This document shows positions 12,015 to 57,295 of a DNA stretch of 64,000 bases, in pieces. The stretch lies in assembly GCA_021816895.1 (NCBI GenBank), contig JAKAWW010000001.1, positions 493,067 to 557,066 on the forward strand, written 5' to 3'. The notes below the pieces were generated by a model. That model searched no databases and was not told the origin of the DNA. It saw only the letters and a list, made by a program, of their open reading frames with translations. Both the position numbers and the translations under genes were made by a program. Numbering within the stretch: the first letter of the stretch is position 1; the number at the start of each line of letters is the position of its first letter. This stretch comes from Candidatus Micrarchaeota archaeon. Lineage in GTDB: Archaea; Micrarchaeota; Micrarchaeia; Micrarchaeales; Micrarchaeaceae.

Positions 12015-12812
12015 ATGGCAACCAAGAGGGCAGATGCAGAGAAAGACAAAATGCAGCATGATGCGCAATCCAGTAGGGACGAGGCGCTGAAATCATGGCA
12101 GAACCTATATCCTGACCTGCTCAAGGCAGTCGGCACTGGCGACAGTATGGCGCTCGACAAAGCATACGAAGCCGTCAGGTTATGGAAGGAAAAGTACCAG
12201 AACACGGTTGGAGTTCTCAATGCGGAGGAAAAGAAGGGGATGAGAGATGAGCTGGACCTTGTGTTCGACAAGGCGAAGCTCCTGAGGAAGGCGGCCAGCA
12301 TAATGAAAGGTCCCTTCTCGGACGTGGGCAAGAACGCGGCAGCGGCCAAGAGTGCGCTCAACATGCTGCTCAGGGCACTTGACACGGAAAACAAGCTGGC
12401 GATCGATGCCGCAGCTACCAAGGCATTGCCTGTGTTAGGAAGATTCCTTGACTCGACACGCGTCAGACCACTTCTCACGGGCAAGATTAACCTGGACATG
12501 AGGGAGTTCCGACCTGATGAGTACAAGAATACGCTGGCCAGGGGCTTCCGTCCTATTGATATGTTGAGGTGGAACACGAACGGTGTAACATTCTGGAGAC
12601 AGGATGAAAACTGCTACGCCGTGACCAATTCTACACCTAAGTACAGCCTCACATGGGAACAACTCAACATTATGGCTGCCACCAAAATGACATGGTCCAT
12701 AGGCCCGTTCGTGATAAGGCATGAGGACGCTGTCAAGCTCCTGGGGCTGAAAGGTATAAGCTACACGAATATGGCGGATGCAAAAGTGGTGGAAAAGATC
12801 ATGAGTGCATGA
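12015..12812 (+). CDS. hypothetical protein (GC-rich ORFan)
   Basis: 265-aa ORF with balanced composition. The antisense ORF 12011-12577 is Ser/Leu/Ala-rich and was rejected. No motif recognised. Confidence 0.55.
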   Translation: MATKRADAEKDKMQHDAQSSRDEALKSWQNLYPDLLKAVGTGDSMALDKAYEAVRLWKEKYQNTVGVLNAEEKKGMRDELDLVFDKAKLLRKAASIMKGPFSDVGKNAAAAKSALNMLLRALDTENKLAIDAAATKALPVLGRFLDSTRVRPLLTGKINLDMREFRPDEYKNTLARGFRPIDMLRWNTNGVTFWRQDENCYAVTNSTPKYSLTWEQLNIMAATKMTWSIGPFVIRHEDAVKLLGLKGISYTNMADAKVVEKIMSA

Positions 12813-12913: not shown

Positions 12914-13507
12914 GTGCTTATGTTAGACGATTTGACATTTCTTGAAGAGGGAGAATTTACACGTATAAATGAAACCATAAGGAAAAAGGCTCTTGAGCTT
13001 ACAGCTGGTAAAAGTGATAAAGAAAAAGTTTTTGCAATATCCAACTTCCTTCTATCAAACTTACAGATGAAACCATTTGATTTAAGCATTTTCAGGAAGC
13101 GCACTGGCTCTGAAATTTTTGAATCGGGATTTTCTACAGGTTGCACGGATACTGCGCTTGTTTTTATAGTACTAAACAGGGCTTCAGGCATACCAACGAA
13201 ATATGCAGAGACATTGTGGGTAGATTGGCTCTCCGGGAAAATTCCAGCAAAACCTGTAGAGGGGCACATTTTTGTAGACGTAAAGCTTGATGGCAAATGG
13301 TTTGCATACGAGCCCTTGAGGGGCTTTACGCCAAATAATCAATACATCCTTATGGGCAGGCATTATAGCGAAGTTGGCAAAGGGCTCGATTTCTCAGCAA
13401 TTTACCTCAAAACGGAGAGTGGCTACAGCAGTAAGCCGATAAATTTGCAGAGCATAGAACAGCTTATGAAATTAAGAAAAAATACAGCTAAACTGCCGAT
13501 TTTATGA
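12914..13507 (+). CDS. transglutaminase-like cysteine protease domain protein
   Basis: GCTDTALVFIVLNRASGIPTKY supplies the catalytic Cys context, and EGHIFVDVKLDGKWFAYEP supplies the His and an acidic residue. Confidence 0.7.
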   Translation: MLMLDDLTFLEEGEFTRINETIRKKALELTAGKSDKEKVFAISNFLLSNLQMKPFDLSIFRKRTGSEIFESGFSTGCTDTALVFIVLNRASGIPTKYAETLWVDWLSGKIPAKPVEGHIFVDVKLDGKWFAYEPLRGFTPNNQYILMGRHYSEVGKGLDFSAIYLKTESGYSSKPINLQSIEQLMKLRKNTAKLPIL

Positions 13508-14253
13508 AGATAAAGAATGCATTTGACGAGGATATTGACCTTATTGTGGAAGGAAATAGTGAATCAGATACAACCATAATATTCGTTCATGGCTTCGGCA
13601 CAAACAAAGACGAAGGCGGTGGGCTTTTCATAGATATTGCCCATTCGCTTTCAGATCGCTTCAGGCTAGTGAGGTTCGATTTCACTGGTTATGGCATGAG
13701 TGAAGGTAGGCAAGAAGACACAAGTCTGGCCAAGGAAGCGTCAGATCTCAACAGTGTGCTAGGGTTCGCGCGTGAGAAATACGGTAATAGGATTTGGCTG
13801 ATTGGTATGTCTCTGGGTTGTTATGTGATAGCATTGCTGTCTCCCGATGGCATTTCAAAAACGGTCTTCATTTCTCCGCCAGATTCTAGTCAGGTCATCA
13901 CTGCAGAAAGGCTTGCCAAGAGAATCAAATCCCGTAATGGAGGAGTTGTGGATTATAATGGAATTAGCATCTACTCTAGATCAAGCGGCGAGACGCAAAA
14001 GATAGGCCCCGCTTTCTGGAAATCACTTGATGAATTTAATGCTGAAGCGGCAATTTCTGCATATTCGCGTAAAACAGACCTTATAACAATAATACCTGTG
14101 CATGACGAGATCTTTGAACGCAAGAATATGGATATTTACGATAAGGTATCTTCAAGTTGCATCAGGATGAAGGGCAATCATGCTTTCACTGTTAAGGAAG
14201 AAAGAGAAGCGTTAGTATCAAAGATCGCAGATATATTTAGTATGTTGGTTTGA
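13504..14253 (+). CDS. alpha/beta-fold hydrolase
   Basis: FVHGFGTNKDEGG and the nucleophile elbow GMSLGCY (GxSxG). ATGA overlap with the upstream gene. Confidence 0.75.
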   Translation: MKIKNAFDEDIDLIVEGNSESDTTIIFVHGFGTNKDEGGGLFIDIAHSLSDRFRLVRFDFTGYGMSEGRQEDTSLAKEASDLNSVLGFAREKYGNRIWLIGMSLGCYVIALLSPDGISKTVFISPPDSSQVITAERLAKRIKSRNGGVVDYNGISIYSRSSGETQKIGPAFWKSLDEFNAEAAISAYSRKTDLITIIPVHDEIFERKNMDIYDKVSSSCIRMKGNHAFTVKEEREALVSKIADIFSMLV

Positions 14254-14672
14254 TGAAAGTGCTTTTCATATGCAAGGCAAATGTCGGCAGGAGCCAGATG
14301 GCTGAAGCGATCTTCAACAGCTTGGCTAATAGTAAAGCAATATCTAGCAGTGCTGGAGTAGATCCAGGTAGCTATGAAGGTAAAAGGATAGTTGAGGCAG
14401 GCCCTAATGTAACTGCGTGTATGAAGGACATAGGGTTGGATGTATCCGATAAGGTATCAAAGAAGCTTACTGAATCTATGGCTAACGATGCAGATATTAT
14501 TGTGGCGATGGTAAGCAAGAACATGCTGCCTTCTTATCTGCAAAGCTCAGCTAAACTGATACTGTGGGATATAAAAGATCCTAAATTTATGGACTACACG
14601 GGGCATGTTGAAATAAGGAACCAGATATACGAGAAAGTCAAAGAGCTTGTAAAAGAGTTGAATTTGAATTAA
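14253..14672 (+). CDS. low-molecular-weight protein-tyrosine phosphatase family protein (copy 1)
   Basis: P-loop VLFICKANVGRSQMAE (C-x5-R-S) and a downstream DP motif (WDIKDP). The ATG overlaps the upstream TGA by 1 nt. Confidence 0.8.
   Translation: MKVLFICKANVGRSQMAEAIFNSLANSKAISSSAGVDPGSYEGKRIVEAGPNVTACMKDIGLDVSDKVSKKLTESMANDADIIVAMVSKNMLPSYLQSSAKLILWDIKDPKFMDYTGHVEIRNQIYEKVKELVKELNLN
14538..14629 (+). repeat. direct repeat A (inside the 3' end of LMW-PTP gene 1)
   Basis: Hand alignment gives 90 of 92 nt identical to 18460-18551. Confidence 0.9.
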
Positions 14673-14743
14673 CGCAAATGGTTTTAGGATTTATATTAAT
14701 ATATCAGAATATCTAATTAGGTAATATTTAACTATGTGGTTCA

Positions 14744-15193
14744 ATGAAGATTCTTTTTGTATGCATAGAAAATGTGAACAGAAGCCAAATAGCAGAAGCT
14801 ATATTCAATAAGCTGTCCAAAAAGAACACTGCACTGAGTGCTGGCGTGGCGCCAAAAACTGTTGGATTGCTCAAAAATGCGTATAACGAGAAAAGGGGAA
14901 CATATCCGCCGATAGTACCAATGAAAGAGCTTGGATATGATCTATCTAAAAATAAGATAAAAAAGCTGAACAAAAAGATGGCGGATGACGCCAACAAGAT
15001 AATCTTCATGTTCAAGAGAGAAAAACATGAGAATGAAATACCAAAATATGCGATTAGAAAGCGGGATGTTGAGTTCTGGGAGATACCAGGATTTAAGACC
15101 GGTCTCTCCTTTGGAGAATACTCCAGGATGGAAAAAATCAGGATAAAGCAGGTGGAGAGACGCGTAAGAGACCTGGTAGCAAGGATCGGTTAG
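14744..15193 (+). CDS. low-molecular-weight protein-tyrosine phosphatase family protein (copy 2)
   Basis: P-loop ILFVCIENVNRSQIAE (C-x5-R-S). Paralogous to the upstream gene. Confidence 0.75.
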   Translation: MKILFVCIENVNRSQIAEAIFNKLSKKNTALSAGVAPKTVGLLKNAYNEKRGTYPPIVPMKELGYDLSKNKIKKLNKKMADDANKIIFMFKREKHENEIPKYAIRKRDVEFWEIPGFKTGLSFGEYSRMEKIRIKQVERRVRDLVARIG

Positions 15194-15227
15194 AATGACA
15201 TCTGTCTGCTATTTGTAAACCATGAAG
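15165..15227 (+). repeat. direct repeat B (spans the stop codon of LMW-PTP gene 2)
   Basis: Hand alignment gives 61 of 63 nt identical to 17472-17534. Confidence 0.9.
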
Positions 15228-15228
15228 C

Positions 15229-15267
15229 CCAAAGAGCTTGTAAAAGAACGAATTTGAATTAGCGCAG
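15229..15267 (+). pseudogene. relic of the last ~13 codons of a PTP1-type gene
   Basis: ccaaagagcttgtaaaagaacgaatttgaattagcgca aligns to 14638-14676 (tcaaagagcttgtaaaagagttgaatttgaattaacgca), the end of gene 1, with a few mismatches. No ORF is attached. Confidence 0.6.
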
Positions 15268-15427
15268 ATAACAAAAAGTTGAATTTCAAGAGGGCGGTTT
15301 TATAACGAGCTTTTTAAGGAACTGAATTCCAGACTTAAAAGCTTTAAATAGAGAATTTTATGCGCATTTTAGTAAAGCGAACATATAAATATCTAAACAA
15401 AAAAGGTTTTATAAGGCGGGTGATCGA

Positions 15428-15946
15428 TTGGCAACGCATGAAATTGATAGATCTCAAAAAGCATTAGGCGCCTGTGGCGAAACAGATATAGACACAAACA
15501 CAAGATTATTGTTAGAAGGTATATTTGCAGAAAGCGTTCTTTATTTGACCGATAATAGCCCAGTGGTGAAATCAAAAGAGCGGATAGTAGATAAGCTAAC
15601 AACATTCGTAGAAAATATATCTGCTGGGATGGCCATAATAGACGATATGTCGGCAAAAGATAAGCCAATTAGTCTGCCCTCGAATTTTAGTGATGCGTTG
15701 CATGCAGTGTTCATTGCATACGATTACGTAATGAGAATTACACCAAAAGCAAGTTTTCTTCGCTCTAAGAAGTCAGACACTTCCCTCATGGAACGTTTTA
15801 TCGAGCAAATGAAGGTAGAGGTTGAATATTTGAAGAACGTGGAACTGGGAAAAGTTGAGCCTGACAAGGTAAAGACGGTTAGGGCTTTCTATGAGGAAAG
15901 ATTTAAGAAGGCCGTAAGCGAGTTACCAGTACCTAGGCTTGATTAA
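15428..15946 (+). CDS. hypothetical protein
   Basis: 172-aa ORF that needs a TTG start. No motif recognised. Confidence 0.35.
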   Translation: MATHEIDRSQKALGACGETDIDTNTRLLLEGIFAESVLYLTDNSPVVKSKERIVDKLTTFVENISAGMAIIDDMSAKDKPISLPSNFSDALHAVFIAYDYVMRITPKASFLRSKKSDTSLMERFIEQMKVEVEYLKNVELGKVEPDKVKTVRAFYEERFKKAVSELPVPRLD

Positions 15947-16039
15947 TTAAGCATCAACCGCATTTTCACCAAATAAACAGCCGTATAGCATTAACTCGAA
16001 CACAAAGAAAGTAATGAAATACTTGGGCATTGATCTTTA

Positions 16040-16070
16040 CCAATATTTTAGAATTTCTATGACGGTGTTA
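16040..16070 (+). repeat. relic resembling the HAD/deaminase gene junction
   Basis: ccaatattttagaatttctatgacggtgtta compared with 19301-19333 ccaaatatttttagaatttccatgaaagtgtta. Two 1-nt indels and three substitutions. Confidence 0.45.
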
Positions 16071-16165
16071 ACTTTATAAAAATCTCTCCCCTATTCTTAT
16101 GTCTAGGATTTCTAAAATTATGTTTGATACTAAATACAATAAATTCCGTTAATCTTAATACTGTT

Positions 16166-16702
16166 TTAGTCTCGCTTTCGTAGGATCTCGGAACCAAAGT
16201 ATTCTACTGCTATATCATATCCTAATATTGCCACTGCAGCATCCCCTCCTTTTTCTGTAAGCCATACCTCTGCGTTGCCATCAAATTTATCCATTGTTTC
16301 GCTGCCAAAGTCAACAAAGTGGTTTTGCTTGAGATAGGATAATGTATCTGCTATGATTGCTTCAAGTTGATATTTACTGAGCAGGGGGTCTTTTGCATAA
16401 TCTTTAAGTATCTCGAATATCTTGCTTGCCTTTATAGAAAAGCTTTCAATTTTATTGCCAATCGGCATGGAGCCCAATCCTTCACGTTCTAAAATCGGGG
16501 CTTCTATATATGGTGCCAAGAGCGCTGTCATAATGCTTATGGCCTTCTCCTTGCCCGCCTTGTTGAAATCATCAATTAAGTGCATGCCATGAATTGCTTT
16601 ATCTATTATCTTCTCTTTTGGGGGTAATGATATATCCCAGCTTTTTGTCTCATTGCCTGTGGGTTGCTTCTCTTTATACACAATATCACCAAGTTTAATC
16701 AA
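16166..16702 (-). CDS. hypothetical protein
   Basis: 178-aa ORF. No motif recognised. Confidence 0.45.
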   Translation of the reverse strand: MIKLGDIVYKEKQPTGNETKSWDISLPPKEKIIDKAIHGMHLIDDFNKAGKEKAISIMTALLAPYIEAPILEREGLGSMPIGNKIESFSIKASKIFEILKDYAKDPLLSKYQLEAIIADTLSYLKQNHFVDFGSETMDKFDGNAEVWLTEKGGDAAVAILGYDIAVEYFGSEILRKRD

Positions 16703-16852
16703 TTAAGTAAGGATTTTCAAATATTTAATTGTTATCCCTTTCAGACCGCGTCCAATAATTCCGGTATTATAATAAACCTGAGGATTTATAAAAATCCCCT
16801 AATATTACTGAAGTATATTATGTTTTAATGATACCATTTAAAAGTTGATGAA

Positions 16853-17308
16853 ATGGAGATAATAAGAGCGAACAGAGTAAACAAGTACATTACGGATGCA
16901 CTGAGAATAGCACACAGCCTCAAGGAATGGTTCAACGAGAACGGGGTGAAAAGCATGGAGGCTGATCTTTTCTTTGATAACTTAATAGTAGCAGTGGAAG
17001 GAAATGAGACCATCGGCTTTGCCTGCTACAGTTCTTATGATGGGATAATGCAATTGATTTGGCTAGCTGTCGAAAGAGGCTATCAAGGTAGGGGTGTAGG
17101 TACAAAGCTTCTCAATTGGGTGGAAGATGAGGCAAGAAGCCACGGTATTGCGCTTATACAAGTGGAGACACTCCCTGACGAGCACAGCTATGAGCCCTAC
17201 AAGCTTACAAGGAAGTTCTATTACAACAATGGATTTGTCAGGGTAGCTTATAAGAAAGCGAGGCTTGAGGGATGGGACGACCAAGTAGTCCTGGAAAAGA
17301 GACTATAG
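16853..17308 (+). CDS. GNAT-family N-acetyltransferase
   Basis: LAVERGYQGRGVGTKLLNWVEDEARSHG is the acetyl-CoA-binding motif A (Q/R-x-x-G-x-G/A). Confidence 0.8.
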   Translation: MEIIRANRVNKYITDALRIAHSLKEWFNENGVKSMEADLFFDNLIVAVEGNETIGFACYSSYDGIMQLIWLAVERGYQGRGVGTKLLNWVEDEARSHGIALIQVETLPDEHSYEPYKLTRKFYYNNGFVRVAYKKARLEGWDDQVVLEKRL

Positions 17309-17471
17309 GAGGCATTGGCGTACCATGTCGGATCGCGGCCGTAAAACGCAATCAAAAAGTAAAGACGCGCAAAAGAAAGGGCAATAATACCAGTGCGCTT
17401 CAATGACTATTCTGACATTTTGTGGTATATTTGTAACAAAGAGAAGACAGCCTTCACTGCGGCTACCTCCA

Positions 17472-17534
17472 TAAGAGACCTGGTAGCAAGGATCTGTTAG
17501 AATGACATCTGTCCGCTATTTGTAAACCATGAAG
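17472..17534 (+). repeat. direct repeat B' (orphan copy of the LMW-PTP gene 2 terminus)
   Basis: 61 of 63 nt identical to 15165-15227 and not attached to an ORF. It is followed at 17540-17554 by gaattaacacagata, which matches 15256-15270. Confidence 0.9.
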
Positions 17535-17628
17535 ATCATGAATTAACACAGATAGTTTTAGAAGCTTACATGAGTATGTCAGATGAGCGATAGTAATCTA
17601 TAAATATAATAAAAACAGAAATCATATT

Positions 17629-18426
17629 GTGACATTCATGGAGGCTAATAAAGATACTGAAAAATCAAAATTAACTGAGCGACAAATGCTTGATTTTATT
17701 GCAAATACTTCAAATATAGAGGGGATTCGCAAACTTGGCATTGGCGATTTTCCAGCTAATGAAATAATACACAATTCAAAGGCGGAATCTGGAACCATAA
17801 ACCTCAATAAAGTATATATAGAACCTTTCTACAGGATGTGCACGAGCGATAGAGAACTGGGGCTTGCCGTAGGGTTCACGTTCTGGCACTCTATCGTAAC
17901 AGATAGAATAAGGACAACGACACTCATTTCCCTATTATTGGACGGAGTAAAGCTTTCAAATGAAGCACGTGAGTATTTTAACGATATATTGGCAAAAGCA
18001 ATCAATGTATCAAACGAGCGTGAGATACTTGGAAAAGCTCCCGAAAACATTAAAGAAGAAGTGGGCAACGCGTTCAACGCCATAAAAAATAAGTATCGAT
18101 TGCAATTGGAAATTGCCACCCAAGCCGAAGTGATTAAGGGCATCAACAGGAAAGACACAGTAAAGAACATAGTTAATGACCTTGCTGTGACAACTGTAGC
18201 TTCCAATCCTAAAGAAAAGCCTACAAGTGAGGCAGTAAGTAGGAATTTTAATGAATACTATGCTGCAGAAAAGTGGAAAGACAAGGAATTTATGGCCGTA
18301 GTGGGTAGGCTGAATCCTATAGCTATTGAGGTTGTTGAGGATGTATCAAGCGCAGCCAATTATTACAACGATATTATTAATGCAGCAGTGGAGCGTGCAA
18401 GGCAGATAGAGGGAAAATATCTATGA
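17629..18426 (+). CDS. hypothetical protein
   Basis: 265-aa ORF (GTG at 17629 or ATG at 17638). No motif recognised. Confidence 0.45.
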   Translation: MTFMEANKDTEKSKLTERQMLDFIANTSNIEGIRKLGIGDFPANEIIHNSKAESGTINLNKVYIEPFYRMCTSDRELGLAVGFTFWHSIVTDRIRTTTLISLLLDGVKLSNEAREYFNDILAKAINVSNEREILGKAPENIKEEVGNAFNAIKNKYRLQLEIATQAEVIKGINRKDTVKNIVNDLAVTTVASNPKEKPTSEAVSRNFNEYYAAEKWKDKEFMAVVGRLNPIAIEVVEDVSSAANYYNDIINAAVERARQIEGKYL

Positions 18427-18459
18427 GCGATTGGTCGACTGTGTGAAGGTTTTATTTAC

Positions 18460-18551
18460 CTGCAAAGCTCAGCTAAACTGATACTGTGGGATATAAAAGA
18501 TCCTAAATTTATAGACTACACGGGGCATTTTGAAATAAGGAACCAGATATA
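18460..18551 (+). repeat. direct repeat A' (orphan copy of the LMW-PTP gene 1 3' region)
   Basis: 90 of 92 nt identical to 14538-14629. Lies in an intergenic spacer with no upstream PTP reading frame. Confidence 0.9.
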
Positions 18552-18595
18552 TTGATAATGTTAAAATAATTAGAATCCACGGAATAGATGAATGA

Positions 18596-19300
18596 ATGAA
18601 ATGTCTTGTAATTTTTGACTTGGATGAAGTGCTCGTGAAGAAAGGTAGTTACAATGCGCTAGGCAACCGGATACCTTTTGCAGTAAACAAAGTATTTGGA
18701 ACTGACGTGAGCATGGAGATGTTTCCTGATCTTTCCACTAAAAACACTAGAGGACTGACTGATACATTCATTTTGCTGAAGTTAGCAGAGCATGCCTGCG
18801 TAAAAAGAAGCATTGCCATTAATCACTTAAAGGAATTGTACAAAGCCGAGGCAGAGTATTCAAAGCGCCATATGAGAGAGCACAAAGCTTCGCTATATAA
18901 AGGCGTGAAGCATCTTCTTAAGAGATTGACTAAAGAGGGGTATGTTGTGTGCCTAGCAACAGGTAATATAGAGCCCGTAGCAAGGCTAAAGCTTAGGAAG
19001 TACGGCATTAATGGATTCTTCAAGTTCGGAGGTTTCGGCACACGCCTCAAGCGAGCAGGCATAATAAGGGATGCAATCAAAAATGCAGAGAAGAGGTATG
19101 GTAAGATAAGCAAGAGGAATATTTTTTACCTAGGCGATTCTCCACGAGGTGTCGATGGTGGAAAAGATGTGGGGGTTAATACGATAGCTGTAGCCACTGG
19201 AAAGTACACAATGAAAGAACTTGCTAAAGAAAAACCAGATTACCTGCTGAAGGACCTTTCAGATACAAAAAGGGTAATGAAAATACCTGGGCAATGTTGA
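18596..19300 (+). CDS. HAD-superfamily hydrolase
   Basis: Motif I VIFDLDEVLV (DxD). ATGN and GDSPRGVDGG fit motifs II-IV. Confidence 0.75.
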   Translation: MKCLVIFDLDEVLVKKGSYNALGNRIPFAVNKVFGTDVSMEMFPDLSTKNTRGLTDTFILLKLAEHACVKRSIAINHLKELYKAEAEYSKRHMREHKASLYKGVKHLLKRLTKEGYVVCLATGNIEPVARLKLRKYGINGFFKFGGFGTRLKRAGIIRDAIKNAEKRYGKISKRNIFYLGDSPRGVDGGKDVGVNTIAVATGKYTMKELAKEKPDYLLKDLSDTKRVMKIPGQC

Positions 19301-19321
19301 CCAAATATTTTTAGAATTTCC

Positions 19322-19798
19322 ATGAAAGTGTTAGATGATCAAATGGCTTACGAAAAAATTATGCACTTTGTAATATACAAGGCACTAAGAAGCGTAAAGC
19401 AAAACAAGAAAGCAAAGTTTGCCGCGTGTGTCGTAAAAGGATCAAGAATCATATCTCTGGGCTACAATACAACATCCATCGATCATGACATTGTTGCGCA
19501 TGCAGAGATAAATGCAATAAGGAGCGCATCAAAGAAACTCGGGTTGGAACACCATGGAAGCCTACTGGGCTTTACGCTATACTCTACATGCGAACCTTGC
19601 AGCATGTGCTTTGCCGCCAGCAAGTATGCCGGCATTAAGAAAATAGTCTATGGGATAAGCCTGAATGACCTCTCAAAACTCGACGCAGGGAAAAAGCTAA
19701 GGCCGCGTAAACAACACAGCTACATGAAGGATGAGATAGAGATGGTTGGAGGGGTTCTGAGGCAGGAATGCTGTGATCTTTTCAGCAGGTTTCATTAG
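19322..19798 (+). CDS. CMP/dCMP-type zinc deaminase (TadA / guanine deaminase-like)
   Basis: HAEINAI and TCEPCSMC form the H-A-E ... P-C-x-x-C zinc-binding signature. Confidence 0.8.
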   Translation: MKVLDDQMAYEKIMHFVIYKALRSVKQNKKAKFAACVVKGSRIISLGYNTTSIDHDIVAHAEINAIRSASKKLGLEHHGSLLGFTLYSTCEPCSMCFAASKYAGIKKIVYGISLNDLSKLDAGKKLRPRKQHSYMKDEIEMVGGVLRQECCDLFSRFH

Positions 19799-20234
19799 AA
19801 TGAAAAAATACCAACACTGTGCATATTAGAATAGAGTTTCATCATAATGAAATGAAAATACGCTTTTCAAAAAGCATTCATTCCGAATTTATGGAAAACA
19901 AGGCTTGCTGGTTAAGCAAGCTGTATTGCGTGCCAAAAGAGCAATGGAAAATTGGTTTTTCCTCGAGAGGCGTTTTTTGGCTCATAATTATGGAATAATG
20001 ATGAATGCTATCCATTTTATTGAAAATTTCTAACGTTTATAGCACTCTCCCATTTTTTCCTTGATATGCACTCATTTAAAGCAGTTCGACGACAAAGATT
20101 TGCACGCATTTGAGCACTATTGGAAGATCTCAAGGCAGGCCGAAAAAATGCCCATAGCAAAGAAAGCACACAAGGAAAGCGAAATTAAAAGAATACTCAA
20201 AATATATTAGATTTACTAATATTATCTAAGAACA

Positions 20235-20696
20235 TTACTTTCTTATGCCCACACCATGCGGCTTTCTGCTTGCAATCTGCTTGTTCACGCTCTCTACTAA
20301 ATACACTGTGAACTTCACTACTTCATTTTCCATCGATAACTCTTCGCTATATGAACCATTAGAAATAGACGCGAATTTGATTGTTATCTTTCCTCCATCT
20401 CTAGAGAAACGTGTAGATCCCCATAGCTCTTTCCAAAAACCATCATTATTGCCATTTGTTTTTTCTACAATTTCTTTCCCAATGTTCTCAATTTCTTTGT
20501 CACTCAAAGTTGTTTCTTCGCCACTCGATCCCTTCAGTACAATAACTACCGCTACCTTATAGGGAACATCCACGTCCTGCTCAGATCGGAAAAAACTGAA
20601 TCTTATCTGGCCATGTGCATATTTTGATTTAATTTCAGTTTTCACTTCTTCTGCTTCTAAAGCATTTTTTGCACTTGCATACATTTTCTCACCCAT
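20235..20696 (-). CDS. hypothetical protein
   Basis: 153-aa ORF. No motif recognised. Confidence 0.45.
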   Translation of the reverse strand: MGEKMYASAKNALEAEEVKTEIKSKYAHGQIRFSFFRSEQDVDVPYKVAVVIVLKGSSGEETTLSDKEIENIGKEIVEKTNGNNDGFWKELWGSTRFSRDGGKITIKFASISNGSYSEELSMENEVVKFTVYLVESVNKQIASRKPHGVGIRK

Positions 20697-20839
20697 ATAA
20701 ATTACACCGTTCCTTATATTTAAATGCTGTTAATTTTTGCATTTCTTTAATGCTGTTTGAACTAATTTAAATAATACTAAAAATATGTTAGATTAACTAA
20801 TTATTTTTTAGTATTGTCGTTCACAAATAAAAATCTTGA

Positions 20840-21340
20840 TTACTCTTCACTGCTTGGAGTATTGTAGTATTCTACAAGCAGCTTTTCAGCGATCTTGAAT
20901 AAGACATTTGCCCAAATCTCCCCTGGATATTTGTATTTAAGATTTTTTCTCCATTCATTATCGAGTATGCTATCACTTGAATCTCCCTCGAAAGCTTCTC
21001 CAAAGCACCATAATACCTCATACTTGTCGAGAACACCTAAAAGCTTTTGGTTTTCAGGATTTACGTATGTATACTCTTCTTTTTTTGGCAACCGTTGTTT
21101 TATGATACTAACGAGCTCTTTTTCGTAATTCATCTTGTCACTATTAATTTCCTCTATGCGCACAGCCAGCGCATTTATAAAACTAGAAGCTATCTCTCGA
21201 TGGTTCTTTAAATAACCTATTATGAATTTTTCAGCCTCTTTTTCCTTATCTAAACGATAGTCTCTAACTTCTCTTACAATGCTCGCTATATCATTGGATT
21301 GATTTCTTACCTCATCCTTATCTACTCTGATTTCGGGCAT
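20840..21340 (-). CDS. hypothetical protein
   Basis: 166-aa ORF. No motif recognised. Confidence 0.45.
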   Translation of the reverse strand: MPEIRVDKDEVRNQSNDIASIVREVRDYRLDKEKEAEKFIIGYLKNHREIASSFINALAVRIEEINSDKMNYEKELVSIIKQRLPKKEEYTYVNPENQKLLGVLDKYEVLWCFGEAFEGDSSDSILDNEWRKNLKYKYPGEIWANVLFKIAEKLLVEYYNTPSSEE

Positions 21341-21454
21341 ACAGTCACCTTAGAGTAAGCATGTGAGGAATGAGATATATAAACATATTGAATTTTTGTA
21401 ATTTGTTAAGAAGTTTTTGAAGTTTTTGAAAAGCGAACAAAAATTTTGACTTAC

Positions 21455-21668
21455 AGAATCCATAGCGAAAGCCCACCTCTTTCAAAGGTGGGATGAATGC
21501 GAAACACATAAATTATTAATTGTAGCTAAATATATAATATGATAGTGAAGTAAATGAAATTAACTCAGGTTGTAAAGGTAGAAGGCGATTATGAAATGAT
21601 GCCAACGGTTGAAACGAACCTTGAAACCGTGAGGAACCCCACAGAATTTATTCGTGGGAAGATGTCAG
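21455..21668 (+). mobile_element. MITE, an internally deleted derivative of the tnpB unit of the IS200/IS605 element at 42948-44309
   Basis: The left ~143 nt align to 42948-43091, including the LE hairpin and the first 15 tnpB codons. The right ~72 nt align to 44238-44309, including the RE hairpin. The junction is at about 21597. Hairpins lie at 21472-21492 and 21638-21658. Confidence 0.8.
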
Positions 21669-21916
21669 TCCCTTAGCCAACCTTTGCGAAAGTCGTTTGA
21701 TGCGTATTCGGAAAACACTACGGCTTCTTTAAGCATGGCTTTGAATATGTCTAGATTGACAAATTTATTTAAAAACGCTTGCTCCTTCTTGATGAATACG
21801 TCTGTGCTGCTTTTATACTTATCTAGCGATAAAAGTGCGTTTATGTCATCAGCATGCTTCTTCTTGTTGTAGCCGTGATCATTTGCATAAGCTAAAACCT
21901 TAAGGATTACTAACAT
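21665..21916 (-). CDS. hypothetical protein (possibly truncated by the MITE)
   Basis: 83-aa ORF. Its stop codon (complement of 21665-21667) lies inside the last 4 nt of the MITE. Confidence 0.35.
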   Translation of the reverse strand: MLVILKVLAYANDHGYNKKKHADDINALLSLDKYKSSTDVFIKKEQAFLNKFVNLDIFKAMLKEAVVFSEYASNDFRKGWLRD

Positions 21917-21981
21917 TTTTGCGGTTTTTATGATTTGAAAAATAAAGATAGCACAATTTTTGCTCTATGCATAACATACTA

Positions 21982-22602
21982 CTAGCGCTTATCCGATTTG
22001 GTTGAATCATTGCGGTTATCAGTGCGCAACGTTACCGGGATTATCTCTTTCCTTACCTCTATAAGTATCTCTTCCGTATCCCCCTTCATATCTGATATAA
22101 GCTTGACGGCCTTGAAACCACCAAGATAGTATTTTTGCATATCAATGTATTCATCCAAGATGGGCAATTTTGATAATCTAAGCAAGGCAAACTTCACATA
22201 CCCTTTCTGGGTAACGCAGTATGCAATTGCAGTGCCGACGAAATTGGCATTGAAATCGTCGCTTTTGTACCCTGGAATCATGTGCATTACAGCATCAGAC
22301 ATGATTTTCAAGGTGAGTGCATCGTATATTGTATCAAGAGAGAGATCGCTGTTCATGACCTGCTTGGCGTGGCGTGCTTTTTCCAGGATATCATTTGCGT
22401 CTATGTAGATCATATTGTCCTCAGGCTTCGAAAGCACATCCCTGCCTGCATTGTGCAATCCGTCCAGTATCTCTACATTAAAGGGTTTTATCTTTATATC
22501 AAAATTAGACCTTATGAAGCTAACTAGTATATCTGAAAGACTGTTGATCTCTTTGTCGCTAAATGGTCGCACGTGTTCTTCAAATGAGGTATTTTCAGCC
22601 AT
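21982..22602 (-). CDS. hypothetical protein
   Basis: 206-aa ORF. The antisense ORFs are low complexity. No motif recognised. Confidence 0.45.
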   Translation of the reverse strand: MAENTSFEEHVRPFSDKEINSLSDILVSFIRSNFDIKIKPFNVEILDGLHNAGRDVLSKPEDNMIYIDANDILEKARHAKQVMNSDLSLDTIYDALTLKIMSDAVMHMIPGYKSDDFNANFVGTAIAYCVTQKGYVKFALLRLSKLPILDEYIDMQKYYLGGFKAVKLISDMKGDTEEILIEVRKEIIPVTLRTDNRNDSTKSDKR

Positions 22603-27469: not shown

Positions 27470-28069
27470 TTATTGCTGCAATATGTCAGCAAAATAGCCA
27501 GCAACCTTCCTGCCGAAGCTTACATTATAGGCTTTTAGGTATTTGTTAAGCCTATTCATGTCCAATTTGCTGATTGCCTCCCTTACCAGCTCTTTCCTTA
27601 TGCCAATCTTAAAATACTCCATGTCTATAAAGGTCTTTTCCAAGTCTGAAACCGGCACCCAAAAACTATCGTATTGCAATAGTTTATATCCGAAGAAATA
27701 TTTGCTTTTTATTCTCATTACCCTATAGTTCCTTCCTTCAAATGACCTTACACCAGTTCTTACACTCCTGATTGTCATCACTGCGTTATTTGCGCCTTGA
27801 GTTGAAAATCCCAACAGACTCAGTGCACTTTCCAGTCCATAATAGAACGGTTTGAATGCGAAACCGACAACAATTGTATCGTTGTGGAATGTATATACGC
27901 CTTTGCTAATTCTTTTTATTCTACCAGATCTGGCATATTTGTGGAGCATCAGGCGCAGGTATTCATAGCTCATACCGCTGCCCTCAAATGCAAGCATAAT
28001 GTCACCTATCGTGAATACAGGGAACTTGTTGTTATTGAACAACTTTTCAAATTCTTTTGCATACTTCAT
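27470..28069 (-). CDS. AbiEi-like antitoxin / wHTH regulator
   Basis: N-terminal FTIGDIM...LRLMLHKYARSGRIKRISKGVYTF matches the AbiEi wHTH signature (G-x-l-x-r-l-x-r-G-v-Y). Located 4 nt downstream of the NTase gene. Confidence 0.6.
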   Translation of the reverse strand: MKYAKEFEKLFNNNKFPVFTIGDIMLAFEGSGMSYEYLRLMLHKYARSGRIKRISKGVYTFHNDTIVVGFAFKPFYYGLESALSLLGFSTQGANNAVMTIRSVRTGVRSFEGRNYRVMRIKSKYFFGYKLLQYDSFWVPVSDLEKTFIDMEYFKIGIRKELVREAISKLDMNRLNKYLKAYNVSFGRKVAGYFADILQQ

Positions 28070-28072
28070 TAA

Positions 28073-28756
28073 CTACACCTTAATTCGCTTTTTGCGTGGC
28101 GTCCTGTTTTGCATAACGATTGATTTGCGCTTAATGCCTTCTACTAAAGTATTATAGCTAGGAGCGACACCTTCATAAACGACGTCATTTAATGAGCCTT
28201 TATCTATCGGAGGAACTATCACGTTTAGAAATGCCTTCAGCATACTTTTGGTCCTTGAACTTATCGCCTGCGTCGTTACAATGTAGTAGATGTCATACAG
28301 ATCTCGCTCGTATCTTCTGCTTTTGTAAGCGCTTATTTTTTCCAAGATGAAATCTTCTGCGCTTAAGGTATTCACAAACATGAGTGAGCCATCTGCTCTT
28401 TCATATTCCATCGGCACGCCCTTTACTTTGGTATTTAATGCCATCTCTAGTTTGATTTTTGCTTCGTTGTTAAATATGCTTATTGTATTGGCCATTAGTG
28501 CGCTGTAGCTCATAGAAAGGTTGCGTTTTGAGAGCTCCCATGTTAGCCTATTATAGATTTCTTCCTTCTGTAATTTTGATACATATATGTCTAAATCGTA
28601 AGAAAATCTCTTGCCATTATAGCAACGCCATATAGCTGTACCGCCATGCAAAACAATCTTGCTGTCCAATGCCAAAAGCGATTCCACCGCAAGATCTTGT
28701 ATTCTTGCTATTGCAACCTGCATATGCGATTTTAGCTTTATCTCTATTGGATCCAC
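28073..28756 (-). CDS. AbiEii/AbiGii-family nucleotidyltransferase toxin-like protein
   Basis: LHGGTAIWRCYNGKRFSYDLDIYV gives the pol-beta NTase G-G ... D-x-D. EKISAYKSRRYERDLYDIYYI gives the conserved R-D-l-Y-D motif. Confidence 0.65.
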   Translation of the reverse strand: MDPIEIKLKSHMQVAIARIQDLAVESLLALDSKIVLHGGTAIWRCYNGKRFSYDLDIYVSKLQKEEIYNRLTWELSKRNLSMSYSALMANTISIFNNEAKIKLEMALNTKVKGVPMEYERADGSLMFVNTLSAEDFILEKISAYKSRRYERDLYDIYYIVTTQAISSRTKSMLKAFLNVIVPPIDKGSLNDVVYEGVAPSYNTLVEGIKRKSIVMQNRTPRKKRIKV

Positions 28757-30692: not shown

Positions 30693-30801
30693 AGCCCCAA
30701 GGGGGAATTGAACCCTCGACCTCCTGTTTTCCAGCCTTCTTGGTTAAACTTCTTTCCAAGAAGTTTACGAGACAGGCGCTCTACCACTGAGCTACTGGGG
30801 C
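30693..30801 (-). tRNA. tRNA-Thr (anticodon CGU) with a 37-nt intron after position 37
   Basis: Reverse complement folds as GCCCCAG-TA-GCTC-AGTGGTA-GAGC-G-CCTGT-CTCGTA[intron]A-ACAGG-AGGTC-GAGGG-TTCAATT-CCCCC-TTGGGGC-T. The intron contains the helix CTTCTTGG/CCAAGAAG. There is one A:C mismatch in the T stem. CCA is not encoded. Confidence 0.8.
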
Positions 30802-42339: not shown

Positions 42340-42450
42340 ATGAATTGCACACTGCGATACGATAAATACTACTTCTTTTCTTGTGATATTCCGTTAATAG
42401 CAGCGTGCTGCAAATTTGCGCGGCACCGCGACTGCCAGAAACGTGAGCGT

Positions 42451-42873
42451 ATGAATGGCATAGCGAATGCAAAATATAAAGAACCATCTGCCAACGATGT
42501 TGGCCATCAGTACAACTTCCAACACCTTGTATTGGTTACGAAATACAGGTACAAAATGTTCAAGAACTCGAAAACTGTCGAGATAATACGGGATGCGCTT
42601 TATGACGCCGCAGAAAGACACGGTATGGCAATAAAAGAGATGTCTTTTGGCGACGACTATGCGCATGTCCATATGGAAGTCAGCATACCAAATACAATGT
42701 CAGTTTCGTATGCGGTGCAGTTGTTGAAGGGATACTCGTCATACAAAGTGTTCAAAGAAATGCCTCGACACATATTGCGCTATTTCCAAGGGCATTTTTG
42801 GACTGCCGGCTACAGCAATGGAAGTGTTGGTCCGAGAGATGAAAATACGCTACAGAACCACATCCGAAGGTAG
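42451..42873 (+). CDS. tnpA: IS200/IS605 TnpA (Y1 HUH transposase), catalytic Tyr apparently replaced
   Basis: YNFQHLVLVTKYRYKMF and the HUH motif AHVHMEV are present. The C-terminus reads TLQNHIRR where family members have x-x-Q-x-Y-I-x-x-Q. Confidence 0.8.
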   Translation: MNGIANAKYKEPSANDVGHQYNFQHLVLVTKYRYKMFKNSKTVEIIRDALYDAAERHGMAIKEMSFGDDYAHVHMEVSIPNTMSVSYAVQLLKGYSSYKVFKEMPRHILRYFQGHFWTAGYSNGSVGPRDENTLQNHIRR

Positions 42874-42965
42874 GATATCTCAGGACAACTGCATCTTGCC
42901 GTTTAACCAAAGTGATACTGCGACCTTTAGGCCGCAGAGAAGGTCATAGAATCTATAGCAGAAAG

Positions 42966-42986
42966 CCCACGATTTTCAATCGTGGG
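42966..42986 (+). other. LE-like hairpin 2 (upstream of tnpB, and the left end of the unit copied in the MITE)
   Basis: cccacga-ttttcaa-tcgtggg followed by atgaat. The MITE copy reads cccacct-ctttcaa-aggtggg, where two stem positions differ and both base pairs are kept. Confidence 0.75.
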
Positions 42987-43047
42987 ATGAATGCGAAACA
43001 CATAAATTATTAATTGTAGCTAAATATATAATATGATAGTGAAGTAA

Positions 43048-44265: not shown

Positions 44266-44309
44266 AACCGTGAGGAACCCCACAGAATTTATTCGTGGGA
44301 GGATGTCAG
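44140..44309 (+). ncRNA. candidate omega/right-end RNA scaffold of TnpB (extent is a guess)
   Basis: By analogy with characterised TnpB systems, the guide RNA scaffold overlaps the 3' end of tnpB and ends at the RE boundary. The RE hairpin 44279-44299 and the last 72 nt are conserved in the MITE. Confidence 0.35.
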
Positions 44310-57090: not shown

Positions 57091-57157
57091 TGTGCCACCC
57101 GAAAAGTTGGCGCATATATGCATTTATGCATTGAATGTTAGGCATGCAAGCCTTTGA

Positions 57158-57229: not shown

Positions 57230-57295
57230 AAGCAGCACAGGGAATAATGCAGCTATAATAATTATATTTGTTCCTTTTTTAATAATGTTGGTACT

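What the first reader, a model, noticed from the sequence alone, without database searches (positions are those of the whole stretch)
14538..18551. Nested direct repeats made of LMW-PTP gene 3' ends bracket blocks of ORFans
A 92-nt piece of the 3' end of LMW-PTP gene 1 (14538-14629) recurs at 18460-18551 with only 2 mismatches by hand alignment, and the second copy has no ORF attached. A 63-nt piece spanning the stop codon of LMW-PTP gene 2 (15165-15227) recurs at 17472-17534, also with 2 mismatches. The order is A, B ... B', A'. That is nested rather than tandem, so simple tandem duplication of the gene pair does not explain it. A third relic of a PTP1-type gene tail sits at 15229-15267. The inner block (15.2-17.5 kb) holds two ORFans and a GNAT gene. 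The outer block adds PTP gene 2 and another ORFan. This is the footprint expected from successive site-specific integrations into gene 3' ends, where each integration duplicates the att sequence and restores the gene, or from an undescribed cassette-shuffling process. No integrase or recombinase gene is present in the window.
Basis: partly seen in the sequence, partly recalled or inferred. Interest (0 to 1): 0.75.

Follow-up and report, generated by a model that had tools for sequence, protein, structure and literature searches.

The report
Gene-end scars in a shuffling archaeal gene array
The repeated phosphatase gene ends are real, but they look like scars of recombination-driven gene gain and loss in an unusually fluid array of small enzyme genes in an uncultivated archaeon, not like attachment sites of integrase-driven mobile elements.

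Summary
A (14534-14629) recurs at 18456-18551 (93/96 identical). B (15165-15227) recurs at 17472-17534 (61/63). The same sequence appears in at least 12 independent assemblies.

The inner pair marks a real insertion. In the closest relative (L029/L030), PTP2-B runs directly into the sequence that follows B' in the window. The 2.3-kb block is therefore absent there as a unit.

The outer pair does not fit an att model. A' is an internal gene fragment that stops 43 nt before the stop codon, whereas all 21 relatives examined keep the long tail.

No tyrosine or serine recombinase is found among the 59 window ORFs scanned. Phosphatase stubs in relatives break at many different points.

The region is a co-oriented array of small enzyme genes in Micrarchaeota/Marsarchaeota-labelled MAGs. 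Gene order differs in nearly every relative. Boundaries between co-oriented array genes commonly carry a conserved ~25-nt motif (J), and other gene stubs are common.

Best reading: homology-driven insertion-duplication and decay scars, with confidence about 0.55. An integrase acting in trans, or a dedicated J-site system, is not excluded.

The parts
14253..14672 (+). LMW-PTP gene 1 (PTP1), intact, with the native long C-terminal tail
   Evidence: Pfam LMWPc E=1.3e-19. Relatives end the same way.
14534..14629 (+). Repeat A, an internal 3' part of PTP1 (codons about 95-126)
14630..14709 (+). T1: last 14 codons of PTP1, the stop codon and junction motif J (14674-14709)
14744..15193 (+). LMW-PTP gene 2 (PTP2), intact
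   Evidence: Pfam LMWPc. 93-94.5% DNA identity to L029/L030.
15165..15227 (+). Repeat B: last 29 nt of PTP2 including the stop, plus 34 nt downstream
15228..17471 (.). Inserted block, absent between B and T3 in L029/L030. It is a mosaic: a PTP1-tail relic (T2), a spacer homologous to L295, the 172-aa gene, a HAD-tail/J relic, the 178-aa gene (-), a GNAT gene and a 163-nt unique spacer.
15230..15269 (+). T2: relic of a PTP1-type gene tail directly after B, followed by a degenerate J
   Evidence: 88% to 14639-14679; 0/2000 shuffles reach the score
15428..15946 (+). 172-aa gene of unknown function. It is a mobile member of the array gene pool.
   Evidence: 80-86% DNA identity in L021 and L295, in different neighbourhoods
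16002..16071 (+). Relic of the HAD 3' end, J and the deaminase start. It travels with the 172-aa cassette.
   Evidence: matches 19265-19333, 0/2000 shuffles. Also present in L021 and L295. J hit 16042-16071.
16166..16702 (-). 178-aa ORFan, the only minus-strand gene in the array
   Evidence: no Pfam, PADLOC, PDB or viral hits; one weak PHROG match of unknown function (E=2.4e-4). AF2 model pLDDT 44.
16853..17308 (+). GNAT acetyltransferase gene
   Evidence: Pfam. 75% DNA identity to L024.
17472..17534 (+). Repeat B': orphan PTP2 3' end with two private substitutions
17535..17584 (+). T3 plus a degenerate J: the native downstream sequence of PTP2. It is identical to L029/L030 for 29 nt.
17638..18426 (+). 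262/265-aa ORFan
   Evidence: No homologue other than itself in the protein search of the 5.8-billion-sequence collection. No family or PDB hits. AF2 model pLDDT 39.5.
18456..18551 (+). Repeat A': orphan internal PTP1 fragment. All three differences from A are derived in A'. Two of the 16 population SNPs fall inside it.
18596..19300 (+). HAD hydrolase gene. In relative L298 it directly follows PTP2.
   Evidence: Pfam. L298 junction.
19265..19336 (+). Native HAD tail, J and deaminase start junction
19322..19798 (+). Cytidine/deoxycytidylate deaminase gene, the last gene of the array
   Evidence: Pfam
19790..20025 (+). Conserved non-coding 'end block', found after the last co-oriented array gene in 12 related loci (the L019, L021, L024, L026, L028 and L034-L038 types and L068)

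Best explanation
The repeats are recombination scars in a hyper-fluid, co-oriented array of small enzyme genes: LMW-PTPs, an alpha/beta hydrolase, a deaminase, HAD, GNAT, P-loop kinases, NUDIX and ORFans. The array sits in the chromosome of an uncultivated small-genome archaeon, in MAGs labelled Micrarchaeota or Marsarchaeota.

Shown:
- The ancestral arrangement was PTP2-B-T3-J.
- A 2.3-kb mosaic block, bounded by 63 bp of the PTP2 3' end, is present in the window lineage and absent in the closest relative.
- Gene ends and gene starts of several array genes survive as stubs next to the J motif.
- Gene order differs in almost every relative.

Inferred:
- The block was added by homology-driven insertion-duplication. 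A DNA fragment from a co-occurring sister lineage carried the conserved PTP2 end followed by its own version of the downstream region (T2...). It recombined by a single crossover (Campbell-type), or by one homologous plus one illegitimate join, within B. That left B followed by the donor allele (T2) and B' followed by the recipient allele (T3).
- A' is the decaying remnant of a second, recently duplicated or imported PTP1 copy. It sits where relatives have an intact PTP1-type gene after PTP2, and it was cut on both sides by later replacements (the 265-aa ORFan on the left, the HAD cassette on the right).
- No dedicated integrase is needed. The conserved gene ends and the shared J motif provide the homology.
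For: 1. Empty site. L029 1616-1717 and L030 478-579 match window 17472-17563 and are attached to an intact PTP2 that is 93-94.5% identical to the window gene.
2. The sequences after B and after B' are both PTP1-tail-plus-J relics with different deletion end points (T2 and T3). That is what is expected for donor and recipient alleles of one locus.
3. The orphan copies carry all the derived substitutions: 2 in B' and 3 in A'. A' holds 2 of the 16 SNPs that separate the two population haplotypes across 9.3 kb. Both facts fit neutral decay.
4. The order B' then A' equals the native order PTP2 then PTP1b in L029. The 172-aa cassette natively precedes a PTP2 in L295.
5. PTP stubs in relatives have variable break points, at aa 17, 29, 39, 59, 72, 95 and 108. 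Stubs of other genes also occur: a deaminase 5' end fused to an AAA18 3' end in L021, a HAD tail in the window, L021 and L295, and a kinase 5' end in L295.
6. Gene order differs among relatives that share 72-94% identical PTPs.
7. No tyrosine or serine recombinase among the window ORFs scanned. The blocks have no viral, plasmid or phage relatives.
8. Potential donor haplotypes co-occur with the window population in the same metagenomes: ERZ27237044, ERZ27237177 and ERZ27237019.
9. Long gene-3'-end duplications also flank inserts elsewhere in the clade: 180 nt of an MFS gene in L021, and 200 nt in L037 with diverged homologous flanks.
Against: - The donor haplotype (PTP2-B-T2-172aa...) was not found, and no circular or intermediate form was seen.
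- L029's state could in principle be derived, by recombination between B and B'. The younger age of the duplication relative to the window/L029 split argues against this only weakly.
- A' is 97% identical to A, whereas PTP1b of L029 is only 81% identical to PTP1. The 'second PTP1 copy' must therefore be recent or gene-converted, which is an extra assumption.
- A simple Campbell event at A would require a recipient whose PTP1 ended at ...NQIY, and no such gene was seen.
- A' ends at PTP1 position 14629 and T2 starts at about 14635-14639. This near-complementarity is not explained by the model.
- Only 64 kb of the genome could be checked for recombinases.
Confidence: 0.55

Rival explanations
1. 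Site-specific integration. One or two small non-autonomous integrative elements use the 3' ends of PTP2 (and PTP1) as attB. They are mobilised in trans by an integrase encoded elsewhere, so B/B' (and A/A') are attL/attR.
For: - B/B' bracket a contiguous block, with an empty site in L029/L030.
- The repeat covers the gene's stop codon, so the gene stays intact.
- 63 bp lies within the 29-69 bp range reported for crenarchaeal att sites, and 14 of 68 thaumarchaeal elements integrate into 3'-distal parts of protein genes (PMC6563490).
- Degraded elements and scattered partial targets without integrases are known from tycheposon islands (bioRxiv 10.1101/2020.12.28.424599).
Against: - No integrase among the window ORFs scanned.
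- The block holds no mobility or replication genes and is itself a mosaic of array-gene stubs.
- A' lacks the native gene end.
- Break points of PTP stubs vary.
- The arms next to B and B' are homologous relics of the same kind, which att arms need not be.
- No relatives in viral, phage or plasmid collections.
- No excision variants in 12 or more assemblies.
Confidence: 0.17
2. Purely intragenomic history. A tandem segmental duplication of the PTP1-PTP2 region was followed by deletions and gene replacements, with no imported DNA. A' and B' are what is left of the second copies.
For: - A' shares a lineage-specific substitution with the resident PTP1 and is 97% identical to it, against 82-92% to orthologues.
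- Both pairs are about 3% diverged.
- Stubs of many genes show that deletion is frequent.
Against: - Tandem duplication of PTP1-PTP2 predicts the order A, B, A', B', not A, B, B', A'.
- The block between B and B' is most similar to cassettes found in other lineages, in other neighbourhoods (L021, L295, L024).
- B is followed by T2 but B' by the ancestral T3. This needs several precisely placed deletions.
Confidence: 0.15
3. A dedicated cassette system. The conserved J core (about TTAGAATTTCTATGAAAGTGTTGGA) at cassette boundaries is the recombination site of an unknown recombinase that excises and re-inserts gene-plus-J cassettes. The PTP stubs are by-products.
For: - J has 39 hits in 240 kb of related loci. 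All are on the gene strand and all lie between array genes. There are 4 hits in the window, all within 14.6-19.4 kb and none in the other 59 kb.
- The 5' flank of J follows the upstream gene and the 3' flank follows the downstream gene.
- Homology blocks between relatives end in or just after J.
- Gene order is permuted among close relatives.
Against: - No recombinase lies next to any array.
- J has no hairpin potential, with z-scores from -1.5 to +1.6.
- In instances where a start codon closely follows J, its TTTTAGAA lies about 22-30 nt upstream of that start codon. That fits an archaeal TATA box for leaderless mRNAs, so conservation may simply reflect a shared promoter or operator.
- The A/A' and B/B' boundaries are not at J.
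Confidence: 0.1
4. Assembly or binning artefact: chimeric joins of co-occurring strains.
For: Related haplotypes co-occur in the same samples.
Against: Identical structure at 100% or 99.83% identity in 12 independent assemblies from different samples and pipelines. Contigs reach 940 kb.
Confidence: 0.02

Closest known systems
Integrated mobile elements of archaea that target the 3'-distal part of protein-coding genes (tyrosine-recombinase iMGEs; PMC6563490)
   Same: Direct repeats made of a gene's 3' end bracket an inserted block. The target gene stays intact. An empty site exists in a related genome (inner pair).
   Different: - No integrase and no element-type genes.
- The repeats are long (63 and 96 bp) and their boundaries are not reused.
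- The outer orphan copy is not a displaced native gene end.
- The insert is a mosaic of stubs from the same array.
Tycheposon-seeded genomic islands of Prochlorococcus (bioRxiv 10.1101/2020.12.28.424599)
   Same: An island of cargo genes in which partial copies of the target are scattered, read there as remnants of older integrations. Many remnants lack integrases.
   Different: The target there is a tRNA or tmRNA with an att of about 40 nt and recognisable tyrosine recombinases. Here the partial copies are protein-gene fragments with variable end points, and no recombinase was found.
Integron cassette arrays, including those reported in Archaea (PMC9668308)
   Same: Co-oriented small genes, many of unknown function, plus GNAT and toxin-antitoxin genes. 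A conserved element commonly sits at junctions between co-oriented genes. Order is shuffled between relatives.
   Different: - No IntI next to any array.
- J does not fold like attC.
- J sits at promoter distance from start codons.
- Most array genes are housekeeping-like enzymes shared across the clade.
Insertion-duplication (Campbell-type) integration and homology-facilitated illegitimate recombination. These are described from bacterial transformation genetics (my own knowledge, not checked in the library).
   Same: One homologous anchor is enough. The anchor ends up duplicated on both sides of the added DNA. Repeat length equals the shared homology and varies from event to event.
   Different: Not documented for DPANN archaea or as a natural source of island growth. 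The donor molecule here is hypothetical.
Flexible ('additive') genomic islands with gene remnants in streamlined microbes (for example PMC10872708)
   Same: A fixed chromosomal location, high turnover between close relatives, low G+C content, and many genes of unknown function.
   Different: Here a conserved 25-nt motif commonly marks boundaries between co-oriented genes, a conserved non-coding block closes the array, and stubs of the same few genes recur.

Membership tests
Integrase-mediated integrative element (att sites in a gene 3' end) | A tyrosine or serine recombinase encoded in or next to the element | tested here: not met
   Pfam scans of 59 window ORFs, including every ORF of 180 aa or more that is not nested in a longer one, found none. 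They found only IS200 TnpA (42340-42873) and TnpB (43048-44265). The rest of the genome could not be searched.
Integrase-mediated integrative element (att sites in a gene 3' end) | Direct repeats (attL/attR) flanking one contiguous insert, with an empty site in a relative | tested here: met
   Met for B/B': L029/L030 have PTP2-B-T3 contiguous. For A/A' no empty site bounded by the repeat was found. L298 lacks 15202-18595 but also lacks PTP1, and its junction shows the microhomology GAATGA.
Integrase-mediated integrative element (att sites in a gene 3' end) | The distal repeat is the displaced native gene end followed by native downstream DNA | tested here: inconclusive
   True for B' (T3 is identical to the L029 downstream sequence). 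False for A', which ends 43 nt before the stop, while all 21 relatives examined keep the long tail.
Integrase-mediated integrative element (att sites in a gene 3' end) | The same crossover core is reused by independent events | tested here: not met
   PTP stubs in relatives begin or end at aa 17, 29, 39, 59, 72, 95 and 108. The LigT insertion in L029/L036 is flanked by copies of 14508-14653 that are only 82% identical.
Integrase-mediated integrative element (att sites in a gene 3' end) | Excised circles or population polymorphism at the boundaries | tested here: not met
   12 assemblies are identical in structure. Raw reads were not available.
Integron | An IntI integrase with attI at one end of the array | tested here: not met
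   Gene lists for 10 kb on either side of the arrays in the window, L019, L021 and L026 show no recombinase.
Integron | attC sites: imperfect inverted repeats that fold as single strands | tested here: not met
   Nine J-containing spacers folded as DNA gave MFE values from -0.8 to -5.7 kcal/mol and z-scores from -1.55 to +1.61.
Integron | Co-oriented cassettes separated by a recurring site, with order varying between relatives | tested here: met
   J motif at boundaries between co-oriented genes, all on the gene strand. Different orders in the window and in L019, L021, L026, L028, L029, L295, L296 and L298.
Gene-family decay (relics of paralogous copies) | Orphan fragments correspond to intact paralogues at the same relative position in related genomes | tested here: met
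   In L029, PTP2-B-T3-J is followed by an intact PTP1b. In L295, the 172-aa gene and J are followed by an intact PTP2.
Gene-family decay (relics of paralogous copies) | Orphan copies evolve without constraint | tested here: met
   All 5 differences are derived in the orphan copies. 2 of 16 haplotype SNPs fall in the 96 nt of A'. The numbers are small.
Insertion-duplication by homologous recombination | The repeat equals the homology shared by donor and recipient and is followed on the two sides by diverged alleles of the same locus | tested here: met
   B is followed by T2 and B' by T3. Both are PTP1-tail-plus-J relics with different deletion end points. L037 shows the same signature.
Insertion-duplication by homologous recombination | A donor molecule or haplotype carrying B-T2 and the block | tested here: not met
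   Not found in the loci reached. The one metagenome scan used a 16-mer that gave only chance hits.

The most novel reading that the evidence does not exclude
The array may be a previously undescribed cassette platform of Micrarchaeota-like archaea. Genes would move as gene-plus-J units by recombination at the 25-nt J core, through an unknown recombinase or through very short-homology recombination. A conserved non-coding end block would anchor the array. The phosphatase and other gene stubs would be footprints of cassette entry into resident cassettes.
Probability: 0.12. Interest if true: 0.75.

Novelty: new variant of a known kind. Interest (0 to 1): 0.45.

Why it matters
If the reading is right, small-genome symbiotic archaea can add and swap genes at a fixed locus without any mobile-element machinery. 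They would use only conserved gene ends and a shared intergenic motif as homology. That would show how ORFans and accessory enzymes enter streamlined genomes. It would also warn that 'gene 3' end direct repeats' are not by themselves proof of integrase-mediated elements. The J-punctuated array and its end block are concrete, testable objects for promoter or operator function and for recombination.

Tried and rejected
1. Metagenome scan for the B end with the 16-mer TTTGTAAACCATGAAG. All 120 or more hits were chance matches, so the single scan was wasted. The same pattern in viral contigs also gave only chance hits, and a 20-mer from A gave none.
2. Viral-contig searches with PTP2, the 178-aa protein and the 172-aa protein found no relatives. 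blastn of 15228-18455 against plasmids and phages found no match.
3. The ORFans had no informative PHROG or PADLOC hits and no PDB sequence hits. Single-sequence AlphaFold models had pLDDT 39-44, too poor for fold search.
4. The idea that the 34 nt after the PTP2 stop is a relic of the HAD 5' end is not significant (388/2000 shuffles reach the score). Only the 6-nt microhomology GAATGA is shared.
5. The idea that the 44 nt after A' is a decayed PTP1 tail is not significant (1526/2000).
6. An attC-like structure for J is rejected.
7. An RNA structure for the end block has only weak support: consensus energy -2.7 kcal/mol, 3 covarying pairs, and no Rfam match above noise.
8. A model in which A' and T2 were once contiguous and the blocks were circularly permuted. 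The end points are complementary within 4-9 nt, but T2 is 88% identical to PTP1 and A' is 97%, and the model needs several precisely placed events. It is left as unexplained.
9. Paralogy between the two 265-aa ORFs (12015-12812 and 17629-18426): none.
10. Literature search for such arrays in Micrarchaeota found nothing relevant.

Full report
**Observation**

The two repeat pairs exist as described. A (14534-14629) and A' (18456-18551) share 93 of 96 nt. B (15165-15227) and B' (17472-17534) share 61 of 63 nt. Both parent genes are LMW phosphatases (Pfam LMWPc).

A lies inside PTP1 (14253-14672), at codons about 95-126. B covers the last 29 nt of PTP2 (14744-15193), including the stop, plus 34 nt downstream.

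Two further pieces of a PTP1-type tail are present. T2 (15230-15269) follows B directly and is 88% identical to 14639-14679. T3 (17539-17583) follows B' directly and is 78% identical to 14665-14708.

The 5.9 kb from 13500 to 19400 is 100% or 99.83% identical in 12 independent assemblies from NCBI MAGs, ENA metagenomes and one JGI metagenome. All have the same gene order. The structure is therefore real, but it is also fixed. The only structural variation in this population is the presence or absence of TnpB elements.

**Organism and setting**

- The window is chromosomal. It carries EF-1alpha, aIF5B, SAM synthetase, ScpA/B and Trm5.
- It is archaeal. It has a tRNA spanning 109 nt, consistent with an intron.
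- The MAGs carry the labels 'Candidatus Marsarchaeota' or 'Candidatus Micrarchaeota'.
- The stretch 13-22 kb has 35-40% G+C, against 43-50% elsewhere.
- Pfam scans of 59 window ORFs, including every ORF of 180 aa or more that is not nested in a longer one, found no tyrosine or serine recombinase. They did find an IS200 TnpA (42340-42873) next to a TnpB (43048-44265). That element type does not make long direct repeats (my own knowledge).

**The outer orphan copy is not a displaced gene end**

Read in frame, A' gives YLQSSAKLILWDIKDPKFIDYTGHFEIRNQIY followed at once by a stop. All 21 PTP1 relatives whose sequences were examined (52-90% identical; 19 full length, 2 with only the C-terminal part) continue past ...IY for about 13-25 more residues. 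Those above 75% identity end in EKVKELVKELNLN-like tails. The long tail is therefore native. A' is an internal fragment cut on both sides.

All three differences between A and A' are derived in A'; the orthologues agree with A. A' also shares a lineage-specific G with the resident PTP1. A' is 97% identical to A but only 82-92% identical to orthologues. It is therefore a young copy of this lineage's PTP1, or was gene-converted by it.

Two of the 16 SNPs that separate the two population haplotypes across 9.3 kb fall within its 96 nt. That fits an unconstrained relic.

**The inner pair marks a real insertion**

The closest PTP2 relatives are L029 and L030. Their PTP2 protein is 94% identical, and their DNA is 93-94.5% identical over window 14604/14688-15227.

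In them, PTP2-B is followed directly by ATCATGAATTAACACAGATAGTTTTAGAA. This is exactly the sequence that follows B' in the window. The block 15228-17534 is therefore absent there as a unit.

B' carries the two private substitutions, and B agrees with L030. The duplication (about 3% on one branch) looks younger than the window/L029 split (about 6-7%). On that basis the empty state is probably ancestral.

After T3-J, L029 continues with an intact PTP1-type gene (PTP1b, fused to a LigT domain). The window continues with a 262/265-aa ORFan and then A'.

**The inserted block is a mosaic of array pieces**

- The 172-aa gene with its flanks (15371-16060) is 80-86% identical to L021 and L295. In L021 it lies before a PTP 5' stub and the transglutaminase-like gene. 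In L295 it lies directly before an intact PTP2.
- Window 15314-15370 matches the spacer of L295 that precedes a P-loop kinase stub.
- Window 16002-16070 is a relic of the HAD tail-J-deaminase start junction (19265-19333). No shuffle out of 2000 reached its score. L021 and L295 carry the same relic after their 172-aa genes.
- The GNAT gene matches L024 at 75%.
- The 178-aa gene, the 163-nt spacer before B', and the 262/265-aa gene have no DNA match in any related locus held. The 262/265-aa protein has no homologue other than itself in the protein search of the 5.8-billion-sequence collection.

**The wider picture: a fluid array**

In relatives, PTP1 and PTP2 sit in a co-oriented run of small genes whose order changes from genome to genome.

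| Locus | Gene order |
|---|---|
| Window | transglutaminase-like, hydrolase, PTP1, PTP2, ..., HAD, deaminase |
| L028/L032 | transglutaminase-like, wHTH, PTP1, hydrolase, deaminase, NUDIX |
| L019 | deaminase, AAA_18, hydrolase, PTP1, 292 aa |
| L026 | hydrolase, PTPx, deaminase, (kinase -), AAA_18, PTP1 |
| L021 | 172-aa homologue, PTP stub, transglutaminase-like, PTP1, antitoxin, PIN, stubs, PTPx |
| L029 | PTP1 5' part, GNAT, PTP1 3' stub, PTP2, PTP1b::LigT, PTP1 3' fragment, 292 aa |
| L298 | hydrolase, PTP2, HAD |
| L296 | VapB, PIN, PTP2, hydrolase |

Phosphatase stubs are common, and they break at aa 17, 29, 39, 59 (5' stubs) and 72, 95, 108 (3' stubs). Stubs of other genes occur too.

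In L298, PTP2 is followed two nucleotides after its stop by the HAD start. Window 15202-18595, and also PTP1, are absent there. The junction shares GAATGA with both window flanks, so it could equally be a deletion.

**The junction motif J**

A motif with core about TTAGAATTTCTAT[G/T]AAAGTGTTGGA lies between co-oriented array genes.

- An nhmmer profile finds four copies in the window (14674, 16042, 17549, 19302). All are on the + strand, and there is none in the other 59 kb.
- It finds 39 copies in 240 kb of related loci. All are on the gene strand and all lie between array genes, including in a distant relative with only 51% PTP1 identity.
- The 5' side of J varies with the upstream gene and the 3' side with the downstream gene.
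- J has no hairpin potential.
- In instances where a start codon closely follows J, its TTTTAGAA sits about 22-30 nt before that start codon. This is the position of an archaeal TATA box for leaderless transcripts (inference from general knowledge).
- T1, T2 and T3 are simply 'PTP1 tail plus J'.

Every array examined ends with a conserved non-coding block (window 19790-20025). Its RNA-structure support is weak.

**Mechanism**

*Against integrase-mediated att sites:*
- no integrase in the window or beside any array;
- no mobility genes in the blocks, and no viral, plasmid or phage relatives;
- variable break points;
- A' lacks the native gene end.

*In favour of homology-driven addition:*
- The sequences after B and after B' are two versions of the same kind of relic (PTP1 tail plus J) with different deletion end points. 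This is expected if B-T2 is a donor allele and B'-T3 the recipient allele, joined by a single crossover in the conserved PTP2 end.
- Related haplotypes co-occur with the window population in the same samples.
- Long 3'-end duplications flank inserts at other genes in the clade. In L021, 180 nt of an MFS gene flank a wHTH/membrane gene. In L037, 200 nt flank an insert, with downstream flanks that are homologous but diverged.

The relic order B' then A' matches the native order PTP2 then PTP1b in L029. The 'nested' pattern can therefore be read as an intact PTP1-PTP2 pair followed by the remains of a PTP2-PTP1 pair.

*What stays unexplained:*
- the donor was not found;
- A' is too similar to A to be an old paralogue;
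- A' ends (14629) almost exactly where T2 begins (about 14635-14639).

**Comparison with known systems**

The inner pair works like an att duplication, and a trans-acting integrase cannot be excluded. The membership tests for integrase elements and for integrons fail on the recombinase, the reuse of one crossover point, the attC structure and the native-end criterion for A'.

The closest functional analogues are:
- additive flexible genomic islands;
- tycheposon-type islands with scattered partial targets;
- archaeal elements that target gene 3' ends;
- insertion-duplication recombination, known from bacterial genetics (own knowledge).

**Verdict**

The specific interpretation of successive site-specific integrations is not supported for the outer pair and is unproven for the inner pair. 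The broader suggestion of cassette shuffling is plausible.

Confidence in recombination scars in a J-punctuated fluid array is about 0.55. The locus is moderately interesting, mainly for the array, its motif and its turnover.

Noticed in passing
window 14674-14709, 16042-16071, 17549-17584, 19302-19336; also L019, L021, L026, L028, L029, L032, L034, L038, L296: A conserved junction motif J (core about TTAGAATTTCTATGAAAGTGTTGGA) lies between co-oriented genes of the array. It has 39 hits in 240 kb, all on the gene strand, and none elsewhere in the 64-kb window. It is probably a shared promoter or operator, but could be a recombination site.
   Followed up: partly
window 19790-20025: A non-coding block of about 170-240 nt is conserved at 71-81% in 12 related loci, always after the last co-oriented array gene, whatever gene follows. 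Reading frames are broken in relatives. RNA-structure support is weak and no Rfam family matches.
   Followed up: partly
window 42340-44309 and 21467-21668: An IS200/IS605-type pair: TnpA (Y1_Tnp, 42340-42873) and TnpB (43048-44265). A MITE-like derivative at 21467-21668 keeps 131 nt and 82 nt of the TnpB element's ends (95% and 94% identical) but lacks the gene.
   Followed up: partly
L002, L003, L006, L009 (about window 11.9 kb) and L005 (about window 21.5 kb): The only structural polymorphism in the near-clonal population is the presence or absence of TnpB copies. A 401-aa TnpB lies upstream of the 265-aa gene in some assemblies. A full 405-aa TnpB sits at the MITE-like site in L005.
   Followed up: no
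L021 13211-13390 and 14335-14514: A 180-nt direct repeat (96% identical) is made of the 3' end of an MFS transporter gene plus 46 nt downstream. It brackets a single inserted gene, a 244-aa wHTH/membrane protein with weak Pfam hints. This is the same signature as B/B', at an unrelated gene.
   Followed up: partly
L037 4330-4529 and 7369-7568: A 200-nt direct repeat (98.5% identical) covers the 3' end of a 137-aa gene. It brackets about 2.8 kb that includes a DDE transposase. The sequences beyond the stop codon are homologous but only about 65% identical.
   Followed up: partly
L029 219-1136 and 1760-2936 (also L036): In a relative, one PTP1 gene is split by a GNAT gene (5' part 219-445, 3' stub 1055-1136). 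Another PTP1-type gene is fused in frame to a LigT/2'-5' RNA ligase domain and followed by a further PTP1 3' fragment that is only 82% identical.
   Followed up: partly
window 18551 versus 15230: A' ends at the PTP1-equivalent position 14629, and the T2 relic begins at about 14635-14639. The two relics are complementary within a few nucleotides, although their divergence from PTP1 differs (3% versus 12%). No model tested accounts for this.
   Followed up: partly
window 30693-30801 (-): A tRNA match spanning 109 nt, consistent with an intron (Rfam 54.7 bits), which ARAGORN missed. tRNA-Val(CAC) lies at 57156-57230 (-).
   Followed up: no
window 27470-28756 (-): An AbiEi/AbiEii toxin-antitoxin pair. 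Homologous AbiEii genes lie near the arrays of L019.
   Followed up: no
record titles of L032-L038, L068 and P0001: Close relatives (79-88% identical PTP1) are labelled Candidatus Micrarchaeota in some records and Candidatus Marsarchaeota in others, so the phylum label of this MAG is uncertain.
   Followed up: no
window 13000-22000: A low-G+C stretch (35-40%, against 43-50% elsewhere) covers the whole array and the ORFans on the minus strand beyond it (20235-22602).
   Followed up: no
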